Source: a virus. Taken from it: a DNA stretch of 49,893 nucleotides. This document shows, piece after piece, positions 1-49,893 of this stretch. A model generated the notes under the pieces. It searched no databases, was not told the DNA's origin, and saw nothing but the letters and a program-made list of their open reading frames with translations. The first letter of the stretch is position 1, and the number at the start of each line of letters is the position of its first letter. The stretch lies in the IMG/VR virus record IMGVR_UViG_3300028844_003870, one strand, 5' to 3'. Both the position numbers and the translations under genes were made by a program.

Positions 1-144
1 CACGAGCAAATCTATACTATCAATCAGTCAGGAAGTTTGGCGGCAAGGCATACTGGAGGGGCAAAAAATAGCAATAAATATTGATTTTGGTTATACTAGG
101 GGAAATCCTATTAACTAAAGAAATTTTTATGTCGCTAGATGTTC
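1..144. repeat. terminal direct repeat copy 1, identical to 49750-49893 (circular-closure overlap or physical terminal redundancy)
   Basis: Compared base by base: 144/144 identical to the window end. Contains the 3' end of the PLA2-like CDS (stop TAG 69-71) and the start of the 129-542 CDS. Confidence 0.95.
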
Positions 145-542
145 ACAATCCAAAAATAACCTGGGCTGTTTTATTTACTGTAGCAACGCTAGTGTTTTAC
201 TCTGGCGGCCTAACTTATCAAATCAATCAAAATGAAATGACTAATGTAACTCAATGGCGATACATCAATAAGAACGGTGATGGCGTTGAGGCGTTAGGTC
301 ATGACTCCGCAAAAATAGAGGCTTTATCTAACAGCCTCAATGAAATGAAAGCCTCAAATAACGCGCTAACCAGTGCAGTCACTCAACTAACCATTACGAT
401 GGGGTCGCGCGAAATGCAGGACTCTAGAGCAAAAGAGGATAGGGCAAAGCTTGATGCCTTCATGCTTAGGGTTAGTGCAGAGCTTAGTGACGTAAAAGTA
501 AAGGTAACTCGTATCGAGGCGACCCAAGCAAAAAAGCCCTAA
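129..542 (+). CDS. membrane-anchored coiled-coil protein (i-spanin-like topology, function unproven)
   Basis: ORF-track frame 81-542 trimmed to first ATG. N-terminal hydrophobic helix ITWAVLFTVATLVFYSGGL, then a long helical segment. No clear RBS. Confidence 0.5.
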   Translation: MSLDVHNPKITWAVLFTVATLVFYSGGLTYQINQNEMTNVTQWRYINKNGDGVEALGHDSAKIEALSNSLNEMKASNNALTSAVTQLTITMGSREMQDSRAKEDRAKLDAFMLRVSAELSDVKVKVTRIEATQAKKP

Positions 543-1758: not shown

Positions 1759-1866
1759 ATGGGAAACAAGATTTACGGTTTAATGGTTATCACTTTTGTT
1801 GCTTGCATGCTGTCAGGTGCGGGAATTATGATTCACGGTATATTATCTAGTAAAGGGGTGTTGTAA
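1759..1866 (+). CDS. small hydrophobic protein (35 aa)
   Basis: Hand-translated: MGNKIYGLMVITFVACMLSGAGIMIHGILSSKGVL. AAGGG 7 nt upstream; stop overlaps the next ATG (TAATG). Confidence 0.4.
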   Translation: MGNKIYGLMVITFVACMLSGAGIMIHGILSSKGVL

Positions 1867-1988
1867 TGTGGGACAAAGAAGGCAATTTAAATGGTAAGGC
1901 TTTGTTTGTAATGCTTTGTTGTACAGTGTTCACAGTTGGCTATATTGCTGTGGGCGCATATCAATTAATAAAGGGGTGGATGCAATGA
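1866..1988 (+). CDS. small hydrophobic protein (40 aa)
   Basis: Hand-translated: MWDKEGNLNGKALFVMLCCTVFTVGYIAVGAYQLIKGWMQ. Start and stop both overlap neighbours (TAATG, ATGA), suggesting translational coupling. Confidence 0.4.
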   Translation: MWDKEGNLNGKALFVMLCCTVFTVGYIAVGAYQLIKGWMQ

Positions 1989-14639: not shown

Positions 14640-14844
14640 ATTGCTCTTCTAGATATATGCGCACCGAGTTAAACGCCTCTCCGCTTATCTCCACCCTTCC
14701 ATTTTTAGTTATAAGATCTTGCATTAAATCCTTCTTTTTTATGGCATAATCCTTGTTATAAGTAACCATAATATCCATTCTATTTAGAAGACCATAAGAA
14801 GACCAATCTTCAACCTTTACCACGTAGGCGTAATTATTTATCAT
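14638..14844 (-). CDS. hypothetical protein (68 aa)
   Basis: ORF track; overlaps the upstream Imm-like gene by 11 nt. Confidence 0.55.
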   Translation of the reverse strand: MINNYAYVVKVEDWSSYGLLNRMDIMVTYNKDYAIKKKDLMQDLITKNGRVEISGEAFNSVRIYLEEQ

Positions 14845-15019
14845 CCATTACACTCCAAACCAAAGCAATAAACCAAGGGATAATTGTAAAAAATCCGATG
14901 ATGTTGCAGATCATAATTGGCAATAAGTTTCTGTGATTGCGCTTACTTGCAATAATTGAAGGTAAAAACGCAATCCAAATGCCAATCGCTAAAAAAACTA
15001 AAAATATTAAAAATTCCAT
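14834..15019 (-). CDS. superinfection-immunity (Imm-family-like) membrane protein
   Basis: Two TM helices with FLPSIIASKRNHRN...FFTIIPWFIALVWSV, matching the Imm-type motif as I recall it. Confidence 0.65.
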   Translation of the reverse strand: MEFLIFLVFLAIGIWIAFLPSIIASKRNHRNLLPIMICNIIGFFTIIPWFIALVWSVMDDK

Positions 15020-47259: not shown

Positions 47260-47661
47260 ATGAAATTCGAACACGTAACAAGTAAAATTATCCAGTGGCA
47301 TCATGACCGCAACTTGATTGATGGTGCAACAGACTGGACGCAAACAGAAAAGATGATGGAAGAACTGTTAGAGTTGATTGCATCACAGCTACCAGGTGAA
47401 TATGAGCCGTCGGATATAGCCTTTGCAGGGAATCAGATTATTAATGACCTTTTGCTTAAGGGTAGAATTAAGTCTGTCGCAGAAGAAGATAAGGCAAAAG
47501 CAAAGTTAGATGCTTTAGGTGATATGACCGTTGTTGCTATCAACATCGCAGAACGTAATAGCTCATCATTAGATACATGCATGAACCTTGCGTGGAATGA
47601 AATTAAAGATCGTAAAGGTCAAATGATTAATGGTACTTTTATTAAGGAGTCGGATTTATGA
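47260..47661 (+). CDS. MazG-like nucleotide pyrophosphohydrolase
   Basis: IIQWHHDRNLIDGATDWTQTEKMMEELLEL typical of the MazG/NTP-PPase fold. Confidence 0.7.
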   Translation: MKFEHVTSKIIQWHHDRNLIDGATDWTQTEKMMEELLELIASQLPGEYEPSDIAFAGNQIINDLLLKGRIKSVAEEDKAKAKLDALGDMTVVAINIAERNSSSLDTCMNLAWNEIKDRKGQMINGTFIKESDL

Positions 47662-48113
47662 ACATATTAAAATTGCTAGAGTTTGAAGAGGGTTATCGCG
47701 AAAAGCCATACATTGATAGCCTTGGTTACCCAACGGTTGCCATAGGTAAGCGTATAGGCCCAAAAGGCGCATCAATTGACCTGTACCAGTTTAAGGTGTC
47801 AAAGCTAATGGCTTCTTTGTGGCTAGAGGAAGAAGTTGCTCATACCGTTCGCGTTGCTAATGCGCAGGAATGGTTTAAGCCTTTAAGCGATGATCGAAAG
47901 GTAATTATCCTATCGATGATTTATCAAATGGGCTTGGTTGGCGTGCTTAAGTTTAAAAATATGATTAAAGCTTTAGAGTCTCGCAACTGGAAAGAAGCAG
48001 AGAAGCAAGCTTTAGATAGTTTGTGGGCGCGACAAACCCCTGAGCGAGCATTGCGCCATGCTAAGGCGTTAGGTGGTGATAAACTGGCGGATGTGTACAA
48101 AGGTTTAATTTGA
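47658..48113 (+). CDS. endolysin, T4-type lysozyme (GH24)
   Basis: LLEFEEGYREKPYIDSLGYPTVAIG carries the E-D-T catalytic triad spacing. Confidence 0.85.
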   Translation: MNILKLLEFEEGYREKPYIDSLGYPTVAIGKRIGPKGASIDLYQFKVSKLMASLWLEEEVAHTVRVANAQEWFKPLSDDRKVIILSMIYQMGLVGVLKFKNMIKALESRNWKEAEKQALDSLWARQTPERALRHAKALGGDKLADVYKGLI

Positions 48114-48566: not shown

Positions 48567-48648
48567 GGTGAATTAGCTCAGTTGGTAGAGCGCATAGGCG
48601 ACTAGTTAAGCCATGAGGCCATAGGTTCAAGTCCTATATTCACCGCCA
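48567..48648 (+). tRNA. tRNA-like gene with over-long anticodon arm (identity unassigned)
   Basis: Acceptor GGTGAAT/ATTCACC, D arm GCTC-AGTTGGTA-GAGC, T arm ATAGG-TTCAAGT-CCTAT, encoded GCCA tail. The anticodon arm is CAT(A)GGC-GACTAGTTAA-GCCATG (23 nt instead of 17). Confidence 0.6.
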
Positions 48649-48650
48649 AT

Positions 48651-48724
48651 GCGTTATTAGCTCATCGGTAGAGCAGCCGACTTTTAATCGGAAGTGGCAG
48701 GTTCAATTCCTGCATAGCGCTCCA
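48651..48724 (+). tRNA. tRNA-Lys: tRNA-Lys (anticodon UUU)
   Basis: Hand-folded cloverleaf: GCGTTAT-TA-GCTC-ATCGGTA-GAGC-A-GCCGA-CTTTTAA-TCGGA-AGTG-GCAGG-TTCAATT-CCTGC-ATAGCGC-T-CCA. Confidence 0.85.
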
Positions 48725-48820: not shown

Positions 48821-49294
48821 ATGCAAAAGTTTAAAGTGTTTATCTTATCAGCTATCATCGGAACGTCTTTGTCAGGGTGCCAGTTGCTAACGTCATCTGT
48901 TGATTTAGCTGCTGATACGATCCTAGCGTCTGTAGAAGTCGACGCAATGCAAACAGATTTGGGTAATTACGTTGATAATCAAACTGCACTGGACGAAGTT
49001 GATGCACTGCAAGCGGATATCTTAGAAACTTTAACTACTGGCAATGGCGCTGAATATTTATTTAGCTATCAAGGCCGCGCATTGATCGCTTATGCAACTT
49101 TACGAGATGAAGCTTTAAGTCGTTGGGACGAGTTATCAGCAGAGCAACAAACCAACCTGGTTGATTTAGATAATCAGTTAATTGCACTGAATGATGAATT
49201 TAACTCAATGAAAGACTCAACATCGTTCACGACTGAGATTTTAGATATTCTTTATCGCGCAGCTATCCTTATGAGTTATTACAAAGCAATCTAA
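48821..49294 (+). CDS. lipoprotein (157 aa)
   Basis: Signal peptide with lipobox LSGC (MQKFKVFILSAIIGTSLSGCQ); helical mature part. Confidence 0.7.
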   Translation: MQKFKVFILSAIIGTSLSGCQLLTSSVDLAADTILASVEVDAMQTDLGNYVDNQTALDEVDALQADILETLTTGNGAEYLFSYQGRALIAYATLRDEALSRWDELSAEQQTNLVDLDNQLIALNDEFNSMKDSTSFTTEILDILYRAAILMSYYKAI

Positions 49295-49296
49295 TT

Positions 49297-49416
49297 ATGG
49301 GCGAAGCGATGGTTGTTTTTCTTTGTGGTGTTGTCGCAATAACGTCAGTTGTTGGATTTGTTTTTGCAGGTCTAGGGATTTGTTTGTTATTTAATTTTAA
49401 AGGCATTCGTCGATAA
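49297..49416 (+). CDS. small single-pass membrane protein (39 aa)
   Basis: Hand-translated MGEAMVVFLCGVVAITSVVGFVFAGLGICLLFNFKGIRR; stop overlaps the next ATG. Confidence 0.4.
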   Translation: MGEAMVVFLCGVVAITSVVGFVFAGLGICLLFNFKGIRR

Positions 49417-49820
49417 TGGCCAAATACTCACTATTCAAATTGTTAAAGGCTCAAGATATGGCGCGTAAAGGCGTCATTTCTGGATCTAAAAGTTTTAAGA
49501 ATGCGAGTATTTTACAGCTAGTCGAGTATTGCAATGGATGTGGCGCTGCTGGTTCGTGGTTTCGCCCTCCTGCTTACATCTGGGGCACTTGGATAGGTGC
49601 GGCTTGCATTCCTCATGATTGGGATTACTCATTTGGCACAACTGAGTGGGGAAAGCTTAAAGCAGATCGCCGCATGTACAAAAACATAATAAAGTTAGTC
49701 ACTGCAGATGAAGCCGTTAACTGGTGGAAGCCTTTGATTCTGCAAAAGTCACGAGCAAATCTATACTATCAATCAGTCAGGAAGTTTGGCGGCAAGGCAT
49801 ACTGGAGGGGCAAAAAATAG
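49416..49820 (+). CDS. prokaryotic secreted-PLA2-like protein
   Basis: YCNGCGAAGS (Gly-rich loop), AACIPHDWDY (C-x-x-HD-x-x-Y) and C-terminal YYQSVRKFGG resemble the bacterial/fungal secreted phospholipase A2 family. Confidence 0.65.
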   Translation: MAKYSLFKLLKAQDMARKGVISGSKSFKNASILQLVEYCNGCGAAGSWFRPPAYIWGTWIGAACIPHDWDYSFGTTEWGKLKADRRMYKNIIKLVTADEAVNWWKPLILQKSRANLYYQSVRKFGGKAYWRGKK

Positions 49821-49893
49821 CAATAAATATTGATTTTGGTTATACTAGGGGAAATCCTATTAACTAAAGAAATTTTTATGTCGCTAGATGTTC
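49750..49893. repeat. terminal direct repeat copy 2 (identical to 1-144)
   Basis: 144/144 identity. Confidence 0.95.

What the first reader, a model, noticed from the sequence alone, without database searches (positions are those of the whole stretch)
49416..49820. Phage-encoded prokaryotic-PLA2-like protein in the lysis neighbourhood
The 134-aa protein contains YCNGCGAAGS (a Gly-rich loop like the Ca-binding loop) and AACIPHDWDY (the C-x-x-H-D-x-x-Y catalytic segment). Downstream are KADRRMYKN and a C-terminal YYQSVRKFGG. As I recall, these parallel the Streptomyces/fungal secreted phospholipase A2 family (ACARHDFGY ... YYQAVKIFG). It is translationally coupled (TAATG) to a 39-aa single-TM peptide and preceded by a lipoprotein. 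Across the junction it is followed by a TM plus coiled-coil protein. A lipid hydrolase here could take part in envelope disruption, as a spanin substitute or helper. Alternatively it could be a virion enzyme for entry, as PLA2 is in parvovirus capsids. No signal peptide is obvious.
Basis: partly seen in the sequence, partly recalled or inferred. Interest (0 to 1): 0.65.

Follow-up and report, generated by a model that had tools for sequence, protein, structure and literature searches.

The report
Phage phospholipase A2 paired with lipoprotein
A small phage gene encodes a real relative of bacterial and fungal secreted phospholipase A2; it is always paired with a lipoprotein gene and usually lies beside the phage's cell-wall-degrading gene, so it probably helps break the host's membranes when the phage bursts out, a role not yet described for this enzyme family.

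Summary
The sequence alone hits no PLA2 model. A 91-sequence family profile hits only solved bacterial/fungal group XIV PLA2s (1FAZ 1.2e-7, 4AUP 1.2e-6), aligned on C-x-x-H-D, the dyad Asp and YYxAVxxFG. H67, D68 and D84 are conserved in at least 160 of 164 relatives. The clade lies between Pfam PF09056 (prokaryotic PLA2) and PF07087 (DUF1353). The founding DUF1353 member, TtaP, was shown to be a PLA2 in 2024, and a Vibrio phage homologue is already annotated as a PLA2 domain protein, so the enzyme identity is not new.

Three points are new:
- The gene is significantly associated with endolysin genes of five unrelated families (18 of 35 loci).
- It is tightly coupled to an upstream lipoprotein gene (about 30-fold enrichment; the window's lipoprotein family is followed by it in 8 of 8 contexts).
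- It has no signal peptide but keeps a covarying Cys pair that matches a disulfide of the secreted enzymes.

My best reading is a holin-released lipid hydrolase that acts with an outer-membrane lipoprotein during lysis. The phage has no conventional spanin pair. The function is inferred from context only. The 39-aa TM ORF is a non-conserved insertion.

The parts
49416..49820 (+). PLA2-like enzyme, 134 aa, no signal peptide. Predicted catalytic residues H67, D68 and D84. Covarying pair C42/C64. C-terminal YYQSVRKFG.
   Evidence: ORF and motifs. Profile hits to PLA2 structures only. Residue conservation and Cys covariation. AF2 model pLDDT 86, with best PDB fold match 1FAZ and best viral matches annotated PLA2.
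48821..49294 (+). Lipoprotein, 157 aa (signal peptide, lipobox LSGC, Gln at +2). Predicted as a short tether plus a five-helix bundle. It is the conserved partner gene of the PLA2-like gene.
   Evidence: Lipobox. It is 34% identical (E 3e-17) to the gene immediately upstream of the PLA2 homologue in Vibrio phage 1.097.O. It is followed by a PLA2-like gene in 8 of 8 contexts. Model. No informative fold match.
49297..49416 (+). 39-aa single-TM ORF. It is a window-specific 120-nt insertion between the lipoprotein and PLA2-like genes, possibly a holin or antiholin-like peptide. Its status as a gene is uncertain.
   Evidence: No homologue in any related locus. DNA alignment shows it is an insertion, and L005 carries an unrelated 66-aa two-TM ORF at the same junction.
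129..542 (+). 137-aa protein with an N-terminal TM segment and a coiled coil. It is immediately downstream of the PLA2-like gene across the circular junction (its start also appears at 49878-49893). Candidate holin or i-spanin-like protein.
   Evidence: Sequence. Only weak coiled-coil family hits. Conserved in L005 and L030 (46% identity) and L032 (30%), absent from the other lipoprotein/PLA2 contexts.
47658..48113 (+). Endolysin, T4-lysozyme type (GH24), 151 aa, no N-terminal TM segment, so it needs a holin. It lies 1.3 kb upstream of the PLA2-like gene.
   Evidence: PF00959 at 5.4e-7 and 30.4 bits against a cut-off of 22.3. PHROG 7 endolysin at 7.7e-18.
48567..48724 (+). Two tRNA genes between the endolysin and the lipoprotein gene: an aberrant tRNA (48567-48648) and tRNA-Lys(UUU) (48651-48724).
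   Evidence: ARAGORN default found only tRNA-Lys. Rfam tRNA model scored 55.2 and 62.9 bits. ARAGORN with relaxed settings found both.

Best explanation
The gene encodes an active-site-intact phospholipase A2 of the bacterial/fungal group XIV superfamily. It belongs to a phage-borne clade that sits between Pfam 'prokaryotic PLA2' (PF09056) and DUF1353 (the TtaP class).

Proposed mechanism:
1. The enzyme is made late, without a signal peptide, from a message that also encodes an outer-membrane lipoprotein. In related phages the lipoprotein stop codon abuts the PLA2 start codon.
2. It accumulates in the cytoplasm, where it is harmless (reduced cysteines, very low free Ca2+).
3. When the holin permeabilises the inner membrane, it escapes to the periplasm together with the soluble GH24 endolysin.
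4. There the C42-C64 disulfide can form and Ca2+ is available, and the lipoprotein positions or activates the enzyme at the inner leaflet of the outer membrane.
5. Hydrolysis of phosphatidylethanolamine and phosphatidylglycerol to lysophospholipid plus fatty acid destabilises the outer membrane (and membrane debris) and completes lysis. This phage has no conventional spanin pair.

Shown here: homology, conserved catalytic residues, lack of a signal peptide, Cys covariation, linkage to the lipoprotein gene, linkage to endolysin genes, and absence of any other lipoprotein in the genome.

Inferred: enzymatic activity (by analogy with TtaP), timing, route of export, the disulfide and Ca2+ switch, the role of the lipoprotein, and the outer membrane as target.

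Confidence by step: about 0.9 that it is a PLA2-superfamily homologue with an intact active site, about 0.55 that it works in lysis, and 0.45 for the whole mechanism as written.
For: Homology:
- Profile A3 hits only PLA2 structures, at 1.2e-7 to 3.8e-5; profile A1 gave 0.0017.
- One family member passes the PF09056 cut-off (31.0 against 29.4 bits), and three pass the PF07087 cut-off.
- Fold search returns 1FAZ as top hit (probability 0.77), and the viral library returns annotated PLA2s.

Active site: H67 in 163/164, D68 in 162/164, D84 in 160/164. These correspond to TtaP H70/D71/D85. TtaP is a demonstrated PLA2 that degrades E. coli PE/PG and also has no signal peptide (PMC11525133).

Targeting and cysteines: no credible signal peptide in 162 of 164 members. 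C42 and C64 are both present in 142, both absent in about 19, and present singly in 3.

Lysis context:
- A Pfam-supported peptidoglycan hydrolase lies within about 2 kb in 18 of 35 loci, from five unrelated families (M15_3, M15_4, GH108, GH24, Amidase_2), with holin families also present.
- 12 of 25 in the first set against about 9% expected gives p about 5e-7.
- 4 of 5 in an independent set, including two Mu-like phages where the gene sits between the endolysin and the terminase.
- In Fusobacterium phage FNU1 the DUF1353 gene is two genes from the amidase.

Lipoprotein coupling:
- 20 of 37 loci have a same-strand lipobox ORF within 700 nt, against 3 in 236 kb elsewhere.
- The window's lipoprotein family is followed by the PLA2-like gene in 8 of 8 contexts, across myovirus, N4-like podovirus and a temperate phage.
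- Start and stop codons abut or overlap.

Spanins: there is no other credible lipoprotein in the 49.7-kb genome.
Against: - No experiment bears on this clade, so activity, localisation and phenotype are all unknown.
- The window protein alone matches no Pfam PLA2 model, and the fold match to 1FAZ is weak (E 0.27, TM about 0.5).
- In the N4-like Vibrio phage the lipoprotein/PLA2 pair lies between the terminase and the head completion adaptor, about 12 kb from the M15 endolysin. About half of all loci show no recognisable hydrolase nearby.
- Several loci also carry spanin-like TM plus lipoprotein pairs next to the gene (L022, L008). There the enzyme cannot be a simple spanin substitute.
- A ttaP deletion in S. 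Typhi gave no envelope phenotype.
- The window clade has Ala at position 53, where most of the family (101 of 164) has Asp.
- Promoter and terminator scans were at chance level.
- The lipoprotein's function is unsupported by any fold match.
Confidence: 0.45

Rival explanations
1. The enzyme is an accessory to a non-canonical spanin. In this reading the 157-aa lipoprotein and the 137-aa TM/coiled-coil protein form a separated o-spanin/i-spanin pair that does the outer-membrane fusion step. The PLA2-like enzyme between them only speeds membrane breakdown or clears membrane debris that would trap progeny.
For: The TM/coiled-coil protein has i-spanin-like topology, and the lipoprotein has an outer-membrane-type lipobox. 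Both are conserved in L005, L030 and L032. Separated spanin architectures are known: 118 of 677 phages, and one pair is split by a 700-bp insertion (PMC6139136). Other loci show TM protein plus lipoprotein pairs beside the PLA2-like gene.
Against: The lipoprotein co-occurs with the PLA2-like gene in 8 of 8 contexts but with the TM/coiled-coil protein in only 4 of 8. The gene order is lipoprotein first, which is reversed relative to the lambda-type i-then-o order (my own knowledge; not checked in PMC6139136), and two genes intervene. The lipoprotein is a large, compact five-helix bundle, whereas most o-spanins are short and largely unstructured. In L003, L029, L031, L039 and L040 the lipoprotein has no adjacent TM partner.
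Confidence: 0.2
2. The enzyme is a virion-borne entry enzyme. It would be packaged and delivered to the envelope at infection to help the tail or the DNA cross the membranes, as the VP1u PLA2 domain does in parvoviruses. The lipoprotein could then be a periplasmic inhibitor that blocks superinfecting phage, by analogy with T4 Spackle, which inhibits the gp5 tail lysozyme (my own knowledge).
For: In the N4-like phage the pair lies between the terminase and the head completion adaptor. In L002, L006 and L016 the gene follows tail-fibre genes. In Francisella phage KIRK the DUF1353 gene lies between head-tail and tail-fibre genes. The model gives weak fold matches to densovirus VP1 PLA2 domains.
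Against: Family members are almost all free-standing proteins of about 130 aa (median 133), not domains of tail or internal virion proteins. The neighbouring hydrolases are small endolysin-type genes accompanied by holins, not tail lysins. Lysis cassettes often lie at the end of tail modules, which explains the tail-adjacent cases. No virion proteomics exists for any member.
Confidence: 0.15
3. The pair is a toxin-immunity or moron module unrelated to phage release. The PLA2 would be a host-benefiting or competitor-killing lipase and the lipoprotein its periplasmic immunity protein, like T6SS Tle/Tli pairs (my own knowledge), or a virulence factor like TtaP in the typhoid toxin islet.
For: An adjacent lipoprotein gene is typical of phospholipase effector/immunity pairs. 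TtaP sits in a toxin islet. The pair moves as a two-gene module between unrelated phage types.
Against: No secretion-system genes appear in any of the loci; the neighbours are phage structural, lysis and replication genes. The enzyme lacks any export signal, while its supposed immunity protein is exported, so the two would be in different compartments. The association with endolysins is unexplained by this model. The window phage shows no integrase among the ORFs I annotated.
Confidence: 0.1
4. The protein is a catalytically inactive structural relic: it keeps the PLA2 fold but serves a non-enzymatic role such as lipid binding or membrane tethering.
For: The single sequence is too diverged to hit Pfam PLA2 models. 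The window subclade has lost the widely conserved Asp at position 53.
Against: The His, the adjacent Asp and the dyad Asp are each conserved in at least 160 of 164 sequences at 29% mean column identity. That is the signature of purifying selection on catalysis. The more distant relative TtaP is active.
Confidence: 0.08

Closest known systems
TtaP (STY1887/t1110) of Salmonella Typhi, founding member of the DUF1353 (PF07087) class of PLA2 (Gartly et al., J Biol Chem 2024, PMC11525133)
   Same: It is a small free-standing protein (125 against 134 aa) with no signal peptide. The catalytic His, adjacent Asp and dyad Asp have nearly the same spacing (H70/D71/D85 against H67/D68/D84). It is a distant homologue of group XIV PLA2. 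It is encoded next to a phage-type muramidase (TtsA), and the authors note prophage DUF1353 relatives. Relatives 50-56% identical to the window protein pass the PF07087 cut-off.
   Different: TtaP has none of the conserved cysteines, whereas this clade keeps a covarying pair. The window protein itself does not reach PF07087, and where relatives do, only about 33 residues around the HD helix match. This clade keeps the group XIV C-terminal YYxAVxxFG motif and scores better against solved group XIV enzymes. TtaP lies in a toxin islet, not a phage, and no lipoprotein partner is reported for it. I could not obtain the TtaP sequence, so no direct alignment was made.
Group XIV secreted PLA2 of Streptomyces violaceoruber (PDB 1FAZ/1LWB) and Tuber borchii TbSP1 (4AUP); Pfam PF09056
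   Same: Profile-level homology at 1.2e-7 and 1.2e-6. The C-x-x-H-D motif, dyad Asp and C-terminal YYxAVxxFG all align. It is an all-helical fold with 1FAZ as best fold hit. C64 aligns with Cys61 of the Streptomyces enzyme, and C42 lies upstream in a position comparable to Cys45.
   Different: Those enzymes are secreted with a signal or propeptide and have two disulfides. This clade has no signal peptide and at most one Cys pair. Identity is only about 17%. There is an extra N-terminal helical segment of about 35 residues and a 6-residue insertion between the CNGCG loop and the Pro-Asp segment. It is phage-encoded and coupled to a lipoprotein gene.
Vibrio phage 1.097.O._10N.286.49.B3 gene NVP1097O_09, annotated 'phospholipase A2 domain protein' (MG592470, Schitoviridae)
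   Same: It is a true orthologue: 50% identity over 97% of the length, with a predicted structure at TM 0.89. It is preceded, with overlap, by a homologue of the window's lipoprotein.
   Different: It is in an N4-like podovirus, between the terminase and the head completion adaptor and 12 kb from the endolysin. Its lipoprotein is annotated only as 'coil containing protein'. No function has been studied.
Outer-membrane disruptors of phage lysis: two-component and unimolecular spanins, the phiKT disruptin, and mycobacteriophage LysB esterase
   Same: The proposed role is the same: removing the last envelope barrier after holin and endolysin action. The gene sits in lysis cassettes, and the phage lacks a conventional spanin (13% of surveyed phages had none). 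LysB is a precedent for a lipid-cleaving enzyme in that step (my own knowledge).
   Different: Spanins and disruptin are non-enzymatic. LysB is an alpha/beta-hydrolase acting on mycolyl-arabinogalactan in mycobacteria. No His/Asp PLA2 has been assigned this role. A 2025 survey of phage lytic proteins does not mention phospholipases.
Patatin-like phospholipase A2 in the putative lytic cassette of Wolbachia phage WO (PMC9203015)
   Same: It is a phage-encoded PLA2-type enzyme next to a small holin-like single-TM/coiled-coil protein, and is hypothesised to act in lysis.
   Different: Patatin is an unrelated Ser/Asp alpha/beta fold. In phage WO it is proposed to replace an endolysin in a host without peptidoglycan, whereas here the enzyme accompanies an endolysin. 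Both roles are hypotheses.
Colicin/bacteriocin release lipoproteins that activate the host outer-membrane phospholipase A (my own knowledge; not checked in the library)
   Same: A small lipoprotein plus a phospholipase A generates lysophospholipids that permeabilise the envelope and release macromolecules. This is the same two-part logic as the module proposed here.
   Different: In that system the phospholipase is a host beta-barrel enzyme (PldA), not a phage-encoded soluble His/Asp PLA2, and the lipoproteins are unrelated.

Membership tests
PLA2 superfamily, group XIV bacterial/fungal secreted PLA2 (PF09056; 1FAZ, 4AUP) | Significant sequence similarity to family members or the family model | tested here: met
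   Met at family-profile level: A3 against PDB hits only PLA2s, at 1.2e-7 to 3.8e-5, and relative P0160 passes PF09056 (31.0 against 29.4 bits). Not met by the window sequence alone: no Pfam PLA2 hit at E up to 1 and no PDB hit by phmmer.
PLA2 superfamily, group XIV bacterial/fungal secreted PLA2 (PF09056; 1FAZ, 4AUP) | Catalytic His with adjacent Asp (C-x-x-H-D) and a dyad Asp about 20 residues downstream | tested here: met
   H67/D68 align to H64/D65 of 1FAZ, and D84 aligns to D85. They are conserved in 163, 162 and 160 of 164 relatives.
PLA2 superfamily, group XIV bacterial/fungal secreted PLA2 (PF09056; 1FAZ, 4AUP) | All-helical fold with the three-helix catalytic core | tested here: inconclusive
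   The AF2 model (pLDDT 86, pTM 0.83) is all-helical, with the motifs on helices H61-73, H77-101 and H107-129. 1FAZ is the top PDB hit but weak (E 0.27, probability 0.77, TM 0.47-0.51). Annotated phage PLA2s and densovirus VP1 dominate the viral hits.
PLA2 superfamily, group XIV bacterial/fungal secreted PLA2 (PF09056; 1FAZ, 4AUP) | Two conserved disulfide bonds | tested here: not met
   Only one candidate pair exists. C42 and C64 covary (142 both, about 19 neither, 3 single), and C64 aligns with Cys61 of 1FAZ. The second pair has no counterpart.
PLA2 superfamily, group XIV bacterial/fungal secreted PLA2 (PF09056; 1FAZ, 4AUP) | N-terminal secretion signal or propeptide | tested here: not met
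   There is no hydrophobic N-terminal segment in the window protein. Four of 164 relatives passed the hydropathy cut-off, and only two of those (P0027, P0060) look like real signal or TM segments.
PLA2 superfamily, group XIV bacterial/fungal secreted PLA2 (PF09056; 1FAZ, 4AUP) | Ca2+-dependent sn-2 phospholipase activity | not testable with these tools
   This needs a biochemical assay. The proposed Ca2+ loop (CNGCG) lies outside the HMM alignments to solved structures.
DUF1353 / TtaP class of PLA2 (PF07087) | Match to PF07087 above the gathering score | tested here: not met
   The window protein has no hit. Relatives at 50-56% identity pass: P0010 at 26.4, P0011 at 25.7 and P0014 at 23.3 bits against a cut-off of 22.5, but only over about 33 residues. 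Eight of 13 close homologues hit at E up to 1.
DUF1353 / TtaP class of PLA2 (PF07087) | Small free-standing protein without signal peptide, with catalytic H, D and D | tested here: met
   134 aa, no signal peptide. H67/D68/D84 compare with TtaP H70/D71/D85.
DUF1353 / TtaP class of PLA2 (PF07087) | Lack of the structural cysteines of group XIV enzymes | tested here: not met
   The paper reports that TtaP lacks all four. This clade retains C42 and C64 in 142 of 164 members.
Two-component spanin (for the lipoprotein 48821-49294 plus the TM/coiled-coil protein 129-542) | Outer-membrane lipoprotein and type II inner-membrane coiled-coil protein encoded by adjacent, overlapping or embedded genes that always co-occur | tested here: not met
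   The topologies fit. However the genes are separated by two ORFs and in reversed order, and the TM/coiled-coil protein accompanies the lipoprotein in only 4 of 8 contexts. The lipoprotein is a 138-residue helical bundle. No embedded lipoprotein ORF lies in or after 129-542.
Parvovirus VP1u PLA2 domain (PF08398) | Match to the family model, and being a domain of a capsid protein | tested here: not met
   Only 1 of 13 homologues hit, at E 0.24. Fold matches to densovirus VP1 have E above 0.3. The protein is free-standing.

The most novel reading that the evidence does not exclude
The lipoprotein plus signal-less PLA2 pair is a self-contained, enzymatic outer-membrane disruption system. That would make it a further class alongside spanins, disruptin and LysB. 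It would replace spanins in a scattered set of phages of diderm bacteria, and it would be kept silent in the cytoplasm by a redox/Ca2+ switch until the holin fires. A corollary is that the ttsA-ttaP pair of the typhoid toxin islet is a domesticated remnant of such a cassette. That would give TtaP its missing function: outer-membrane permeabilisation for toxin release.
Probability: 0.3. Interest if true: 0.8.

Novelty: new variant of a known kind. Interest (0 to 1): 0.6.

Why it matters
About one in eight phages of Gram-negative hosts has no recognisable spanin, and how they breach the outer membrane is an open question. A phage-encoded PLA2 that needs no signal peptide and travels with its own outer-membrane lipoprotein would be an enzymatic answer, and it can be tested directly with knockouts and complementation.

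It would also give a rationale for TtaP, the only gene of the typhoid toxin islet whose biological role is unknown. TtaP sits beside a phage-type muramidase that alone is insufficient for toxin release.

On the practical side, the family has at least 457 clusters at 50% identity. Almost all are labelled 'hypothetical' and fall between two Pfam models, so a dedicated model would improve phage annotation. Small bacterial PLA2s are also of industrial interest.

Tried and rejected
- Single-sequence searches (Pfam, PHROGs, PDB phmmer) gave nothing for the PLA2-like protein. The only PHROG hit, a tail assembly chaperone at E 0.043, was rejected as noise.
- Nucleotide search of the region against GenBank phages found only tRNA and short lysozyme or MazG matches, so there is no close sequenced relative.
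- The broad alignment A3 was too diverse for the genome scan. The narrower A6 found only three MAG loci, so the host of this phage was not identified. GC is 39.9%, and the nearest homologues come from marine or aquatic metagenomes and a Vibrio phage.
- I could not retrieve the TtaP sequence, so the comparison with TtaP rests on the paper's description.
- Model coordinates are not exposed, so the C42-C64 distance could not be measured.
- Fold and profile searches with the lipoprotein returned only generic helical bundles, so I make no claim about its mechanism from structure.
- The 39-aa TM peptide was considered as the enzyme's functional partner and rejected because it is not conserved.
- Promoter and terminator scans were at chance level and were not used.
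- I first guessed that L020:5644-6075 was an M15_4 peptidase. Pfam did not support this, so it is not counted.
Full report
**What is there.** The window is a circular assembly of a 49,749-bp phage genome: the first 144 bases repeat at the end, and GC is 39.9%. PHROG matches show a myovirus layout with terminase, portal, Mu-F-like head protein, head protease, major head protein, tail sheath and baseplate. The flagged ORF (49416-49820, + strand, 134 aa) and all four quoted motifs are present exactly as described.

Its neighbours on the same strand are, in order:
- a MazG-like gene (47260-47661);
- a soluble T4-type lysozyme (47658-48113; PF00959 at 30.4 bits against a cut-off of 22.3, and PHROG 7 endolysin);
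- two tRNA genes;
- a 157-aa lipoprotein gene (48821-49294, lipobox LSGC);
- a 39-aa hydrophobic ORF whose TAA stop overlaps the ATG of the flagged gene;
- the flagged gene itself;
- across the circular junction, a 137-aa protein with an N-terminal TM segment and a coiled coil (129-542).

**Is it a PLA2?** The sequence alone gives no significant hit in Pfam, PHROGs or PDB. It has relatives, though: 13 close clusters and 457 clusters at 50% identity with E up to 0.001 in an exhaustive search.

A profile of the 13 close sequences finds the Streptomyces violaceoruber PLA2 (1FAZ) at 0.0017 and three further bacterial or fungal PLA2s as its best four hits. A profile of 91 diverse members finds only those four structures, all significant: 1FAZ 1.2e-7, 4AUP 1.2e-6, 7YGK 2.7e-6 and 8K1W 3.8e-5. 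The alignments place AC-x-x-H67-D68 on ACARHD, D84 on the dyad Asp (RID85), and YYQSVRKFG on the C-terminal YYQAVKIFG.

Across 164 aligned relatives, H67 is present in 163, D68 in 162 and D84 in 160. Y71, N90, Y117, V121, G125, G41, G43 and P52 are also above 90%.

An AlphaFold model built from the 13-sequence alignment is confident (pLDDT 86, pTM 0.83) and all-helical. Its best PDB fold match is again 1FAZ, but weakly (E 0.27, TM about 0.5). In the viral library the top hits are a Vibrio phage 'phospholipase A2 domain protein' (TM 0.89), a 'Phospholipase A2' of an uncultured siphovirus, and then a long series of weak densovirus VP1 PLA2 domains.

**Where it sits among known families.** Pfam places the clade between two models. 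Relatives at 50-56% identity pass the DUF1353 (PF07087) gathering score, but only over about 33 residues around the HD helix. A more distant relative passes the prokaryotic PLA2 model PF09056 over most of its length. The window protein itself reaches neither.

DUF1353 is no longer of unknown function. Gartly et al. (J Biol Chem 2024, PMC11525133) showed that TtaP of Salmonella Typhi, a 125-aa DUF1353 protein with no signal peptide, is a genuine PLA2 with catalytic H70/D71/D85. It degrades E. coli PE and PG, is a distant homologue of 1LWB and 4AUP, and lacks their four cysteines. They also note that it resembles prophage DUF1353 proteins and that its neighbour TtsA resembles prophage muramidases.

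The window clade shares TtaP's size, lack of signal peptide and catalytic triad spacing. It differs in keeping the group XIV C-terminal motif and one cysteine pair. C42 and C64 are both present in 142 sequences, both absent in about 19, and present singly in only 3. C64 aligns with Cys61 of the Streptomyces enzyme. Only 2 of 164 members have a credible N-terminal signal or TM segment.

So the protein is a secreted-type PLA2 scaffold, probably with one disulfide, that is made without an export signal.

**Context: endolysins.** I fetched 25 loci from viral contigs and metagenomes. Pfam scanning of all ORFs within 1.6 kb of the PLA2-like gene found Peptidase_M15_3 four times, GH108 three times, Phage_lysozyme three times and Amidase_2 twice. 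That is a peptidoglycan hydrolase in 12 of 25 loci, from four unrelated families, with two holin families also present.

An independent set of five long contigs, chosen only for contig length, gave 4 of 5 with a hydrolase one to three genes upstream on the same strand (M15_4 twice, Amidase_2, M15_3). Two of these are Mu-like phages in which the gene lies between the endolysin and the TraR/gp27/terminase block, which is the Mu lysis region. Adding L029 (Amidase_2 immediately downstream) and the window gives 18 of 35 loci across five hydrolase families.

In the closest relatives the endolysin slot just upstream of the lipoprotein gene is filled by GH24 (window), GH108 (L003, L005) or DUF5675 (L030), while the lipoprotein/PLA2 pair stays constant. 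Fusobacterium phage FNU1 has its DUF1353 gene two genes from the amidase.

There are exceptions. In the N4-like Vibrio phage the pair lies between the terminase and the head completion adaptor, 12 kb from the M15 endolysin. About half of all loci show no recognisable hydrolase nearby.

**Context: the lipoprotein.** The gene immediately upstream of the Vibrio phage homologue, annotated only as 'coil containing protein', is 34% identical (E 3e-17) to the window's lipoprotein, with the lipobox Cys aligned. This lipoprotein family is small, at 15 clusters. In all eight independent contexts where I could see its surroundings, a PLA2-like gene is the next or next-but-one gene. These contexts span the window myovirus, related contigs L003, L005, L030 and L032, two N4-like phages L001 and L031, and an integrase-bearing element L029. 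The stop and start codons often abut or overlap.

More generally, a strict lipobox scan finds a same-strand lipoprotein ORF within 700 nt of the PLA2-like gene in 20 of 37 loci, against 3 such ORFs in the remaining 236 kb. That is roughly a 30-fold enrichment. The scan misses several lipoproteins with less canonical lipoboxes that are visible by eye. These lipoproteins belong to several unrelated families.

The window's lipoprotein models as a disordered tether followed by a five-helix bundle (pLDDT 75). It has no informative structural or sequence relative.

**The other neighbours.** The 39-aa TM ORF has no homologue in any related locus. DNA alignment shows it is a 120-nt insertion at the lipoprotein/PLA2 junction. 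L005 has an unrelated ~200-nt insertion at the same point, encoding a 66-aa two-TM protein. In L030 and L003 the two genes abut.

The TM/coiled-coil protein is conserved only in L005, L030 and L032. It could be a holin or an i-spanin-like protein.

Genome-wide scans with strict and relaxed lipobox patterns find no other credible lipoprotein in the window, and no lipoprotein ORF is embedded in or follows 129-542. The phage therefore has no conventional spanin pair. In the published survey, 91 of 677 phages had none.

**Mechanism.** The best-supported reading is that this is a lysis-cassette enzyme that behaves like a canonical soluble endolysin in its logistics. It accumulates in the cytoplasm, is released by the holin, and then attacks lipid rather than peptidoglycan.

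A secreted-type PLA2 scaffold with a conserved Cys pair but no signal peptide would be reduced, and starved of Ca2+, in the cytoplasm. It would become competent only in the periplasm, which offers a simple safety switch. The co-translated outer-membrane lipoprotein is the obvious candidate for targeting or activating it at the inner leaflet of the outer membrane. Lysophospholipids and fatty acids produced there would destabilise that membrane.

Every step beyond homology and gene linkage is inference. I put about 0.9 on 'PLA2-superfamily homologue with intact active site', about 0.55 on 'functions in lysis', and about 0.45 on the full mechanism.

The rivals are:
- an accessory to a non-canonical spanin made of the lipoprotein and the TM/coiled-coil protein (0.2);
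- a virion entry enzyme with the lipoprotein as an exclusion factor (0.15);
- a toxin/immunity or moron pair (0.1);
- an inactive structural relic (0.08).

**Novelty.** The enzyme identity is not new. TtaP established the activity of the sister class in 2024, and the Vibrio phage orthologue has carried a PLA2-domain annotation since its deposition.

I could not find three things described anywhere:
- the association of this family with lysis cassettes;
- its obligate pairing with lipoprotein genes;
- the combination of signal-less enzyme and conserved Cys pair.

In the held library only five papers mention DUF1353, and none discusses lysis. The 2025 survey of phage lytic proteins does not mention phospholipases. 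The only phage-PLA2 lysis hypothesis concerns the unrelated patatin of phage WO.

The family is almost entirely labelled 'hypothetical' in public sources. It is present in only two cultured phages among 50,697 GenBank records, which explains the lack of experiments. I rate it a new variant of a known kind, with interest 0.6.

Noticed in passing
window 48567-48648 (+): There is a second, aberrant tRNA gene just upstream of tRNA-Lys(UUU). The Rfam tRNA model scores 55 bits, but default ARAGORN missed it. With relaxed settings it is called either tRNA-Leu(UAA) with a 6-nt intron or a tRNA with an 8-nt anticodon loop and a four-base anticodon (GACU). It could be a frameshift-suppressor-like tRNA or an intron-containing tRNA.
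   Followed up: partly
L030:753-1145 and L021:4298-4684: A DUF5675 (PF18925) protein of about 130 aa occupies the slot just upstream of the lipoprotein/PLA2 pair in L030. In sister contigs that slot holds a GH108 or GH24 endolysin. In L021 it also lies two genes from the PLA2-like gene. DUF5675 may be an unrecognised endolysin family.
   Followed up: no
window 49297-49416 and L005:1032-1232: The junction between the lipoprotein and PLA2-like genes has independently acquired two unrelated small membrane-protein ORFs: 39 aa with one TM segment in the window, and 66 aa with two in L005. In L030 and L003 the two genes abut. The junction looks like an insertion hot-spot for holin- or antiholin-like peptides.
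   Followed up: partly
window 14834-15019 (-): A 61-aa two-TM ORF on the opposite strand, inside the tail module, matches the superinfection immunity family PF14373 (E 1.6e-12, 47.6 bits against a cut-off of 27.9).
   Followed up: partly
window 1759-1866 and 1866-1988 (+): Two tandem ORFs of 35 and 40 aa, each a single hydrophobic helix, lie about 1.2 kb downstream of the TM/coiled-coil gene. They are further holin- or antiholin-like candidates in a phage with no annotated holin.
   Followed up: no
window 1-144 and 49750-49893: An exact 144-bp terminal repeat marks the window as a circularly closed assembly (unique length 49,749 bp). Genes at the two ends of the window are therefore neighbours.
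   Followed up: yes
L006:4550-4996: In one relative the gene immediately upstream of the PLA2-like gene is a Peptidase_C92 (YaeF/YiiX permuted papain-like amidase) just at the Pfam cut-off (27.3 against 27.0 bits). It belongs to the NlpC/P60 superfamily, which I recall includes both cell-wall amidases and lipid acyl-hydrolases.
   Followed up: no
L041 and L042 (Mu-like contigs): In two Mu-like phages the PLA2-like gene lies between the endolysin (Amidase_2 or M15_3) and the TraR/DUF2730/gp27/terminase block. In L041 the 253-aa ORF just upstream combines N-terminal TM segments with an internal lipobox (LSGC), which may be a mis-joined or fused spanin-like pair.
   Followed up: no
window 47260-47661 / L033:43728-44111: The MazG-like pyrophosphatase whose stop overlaps the endolysin start is 50% identical to a gene of the same Vibrio N4-like phage that carries the lipoprotein/PLA2 pair. 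This suggests gene exchange between these two otherwise unrelated phage types.
   Followed up: no
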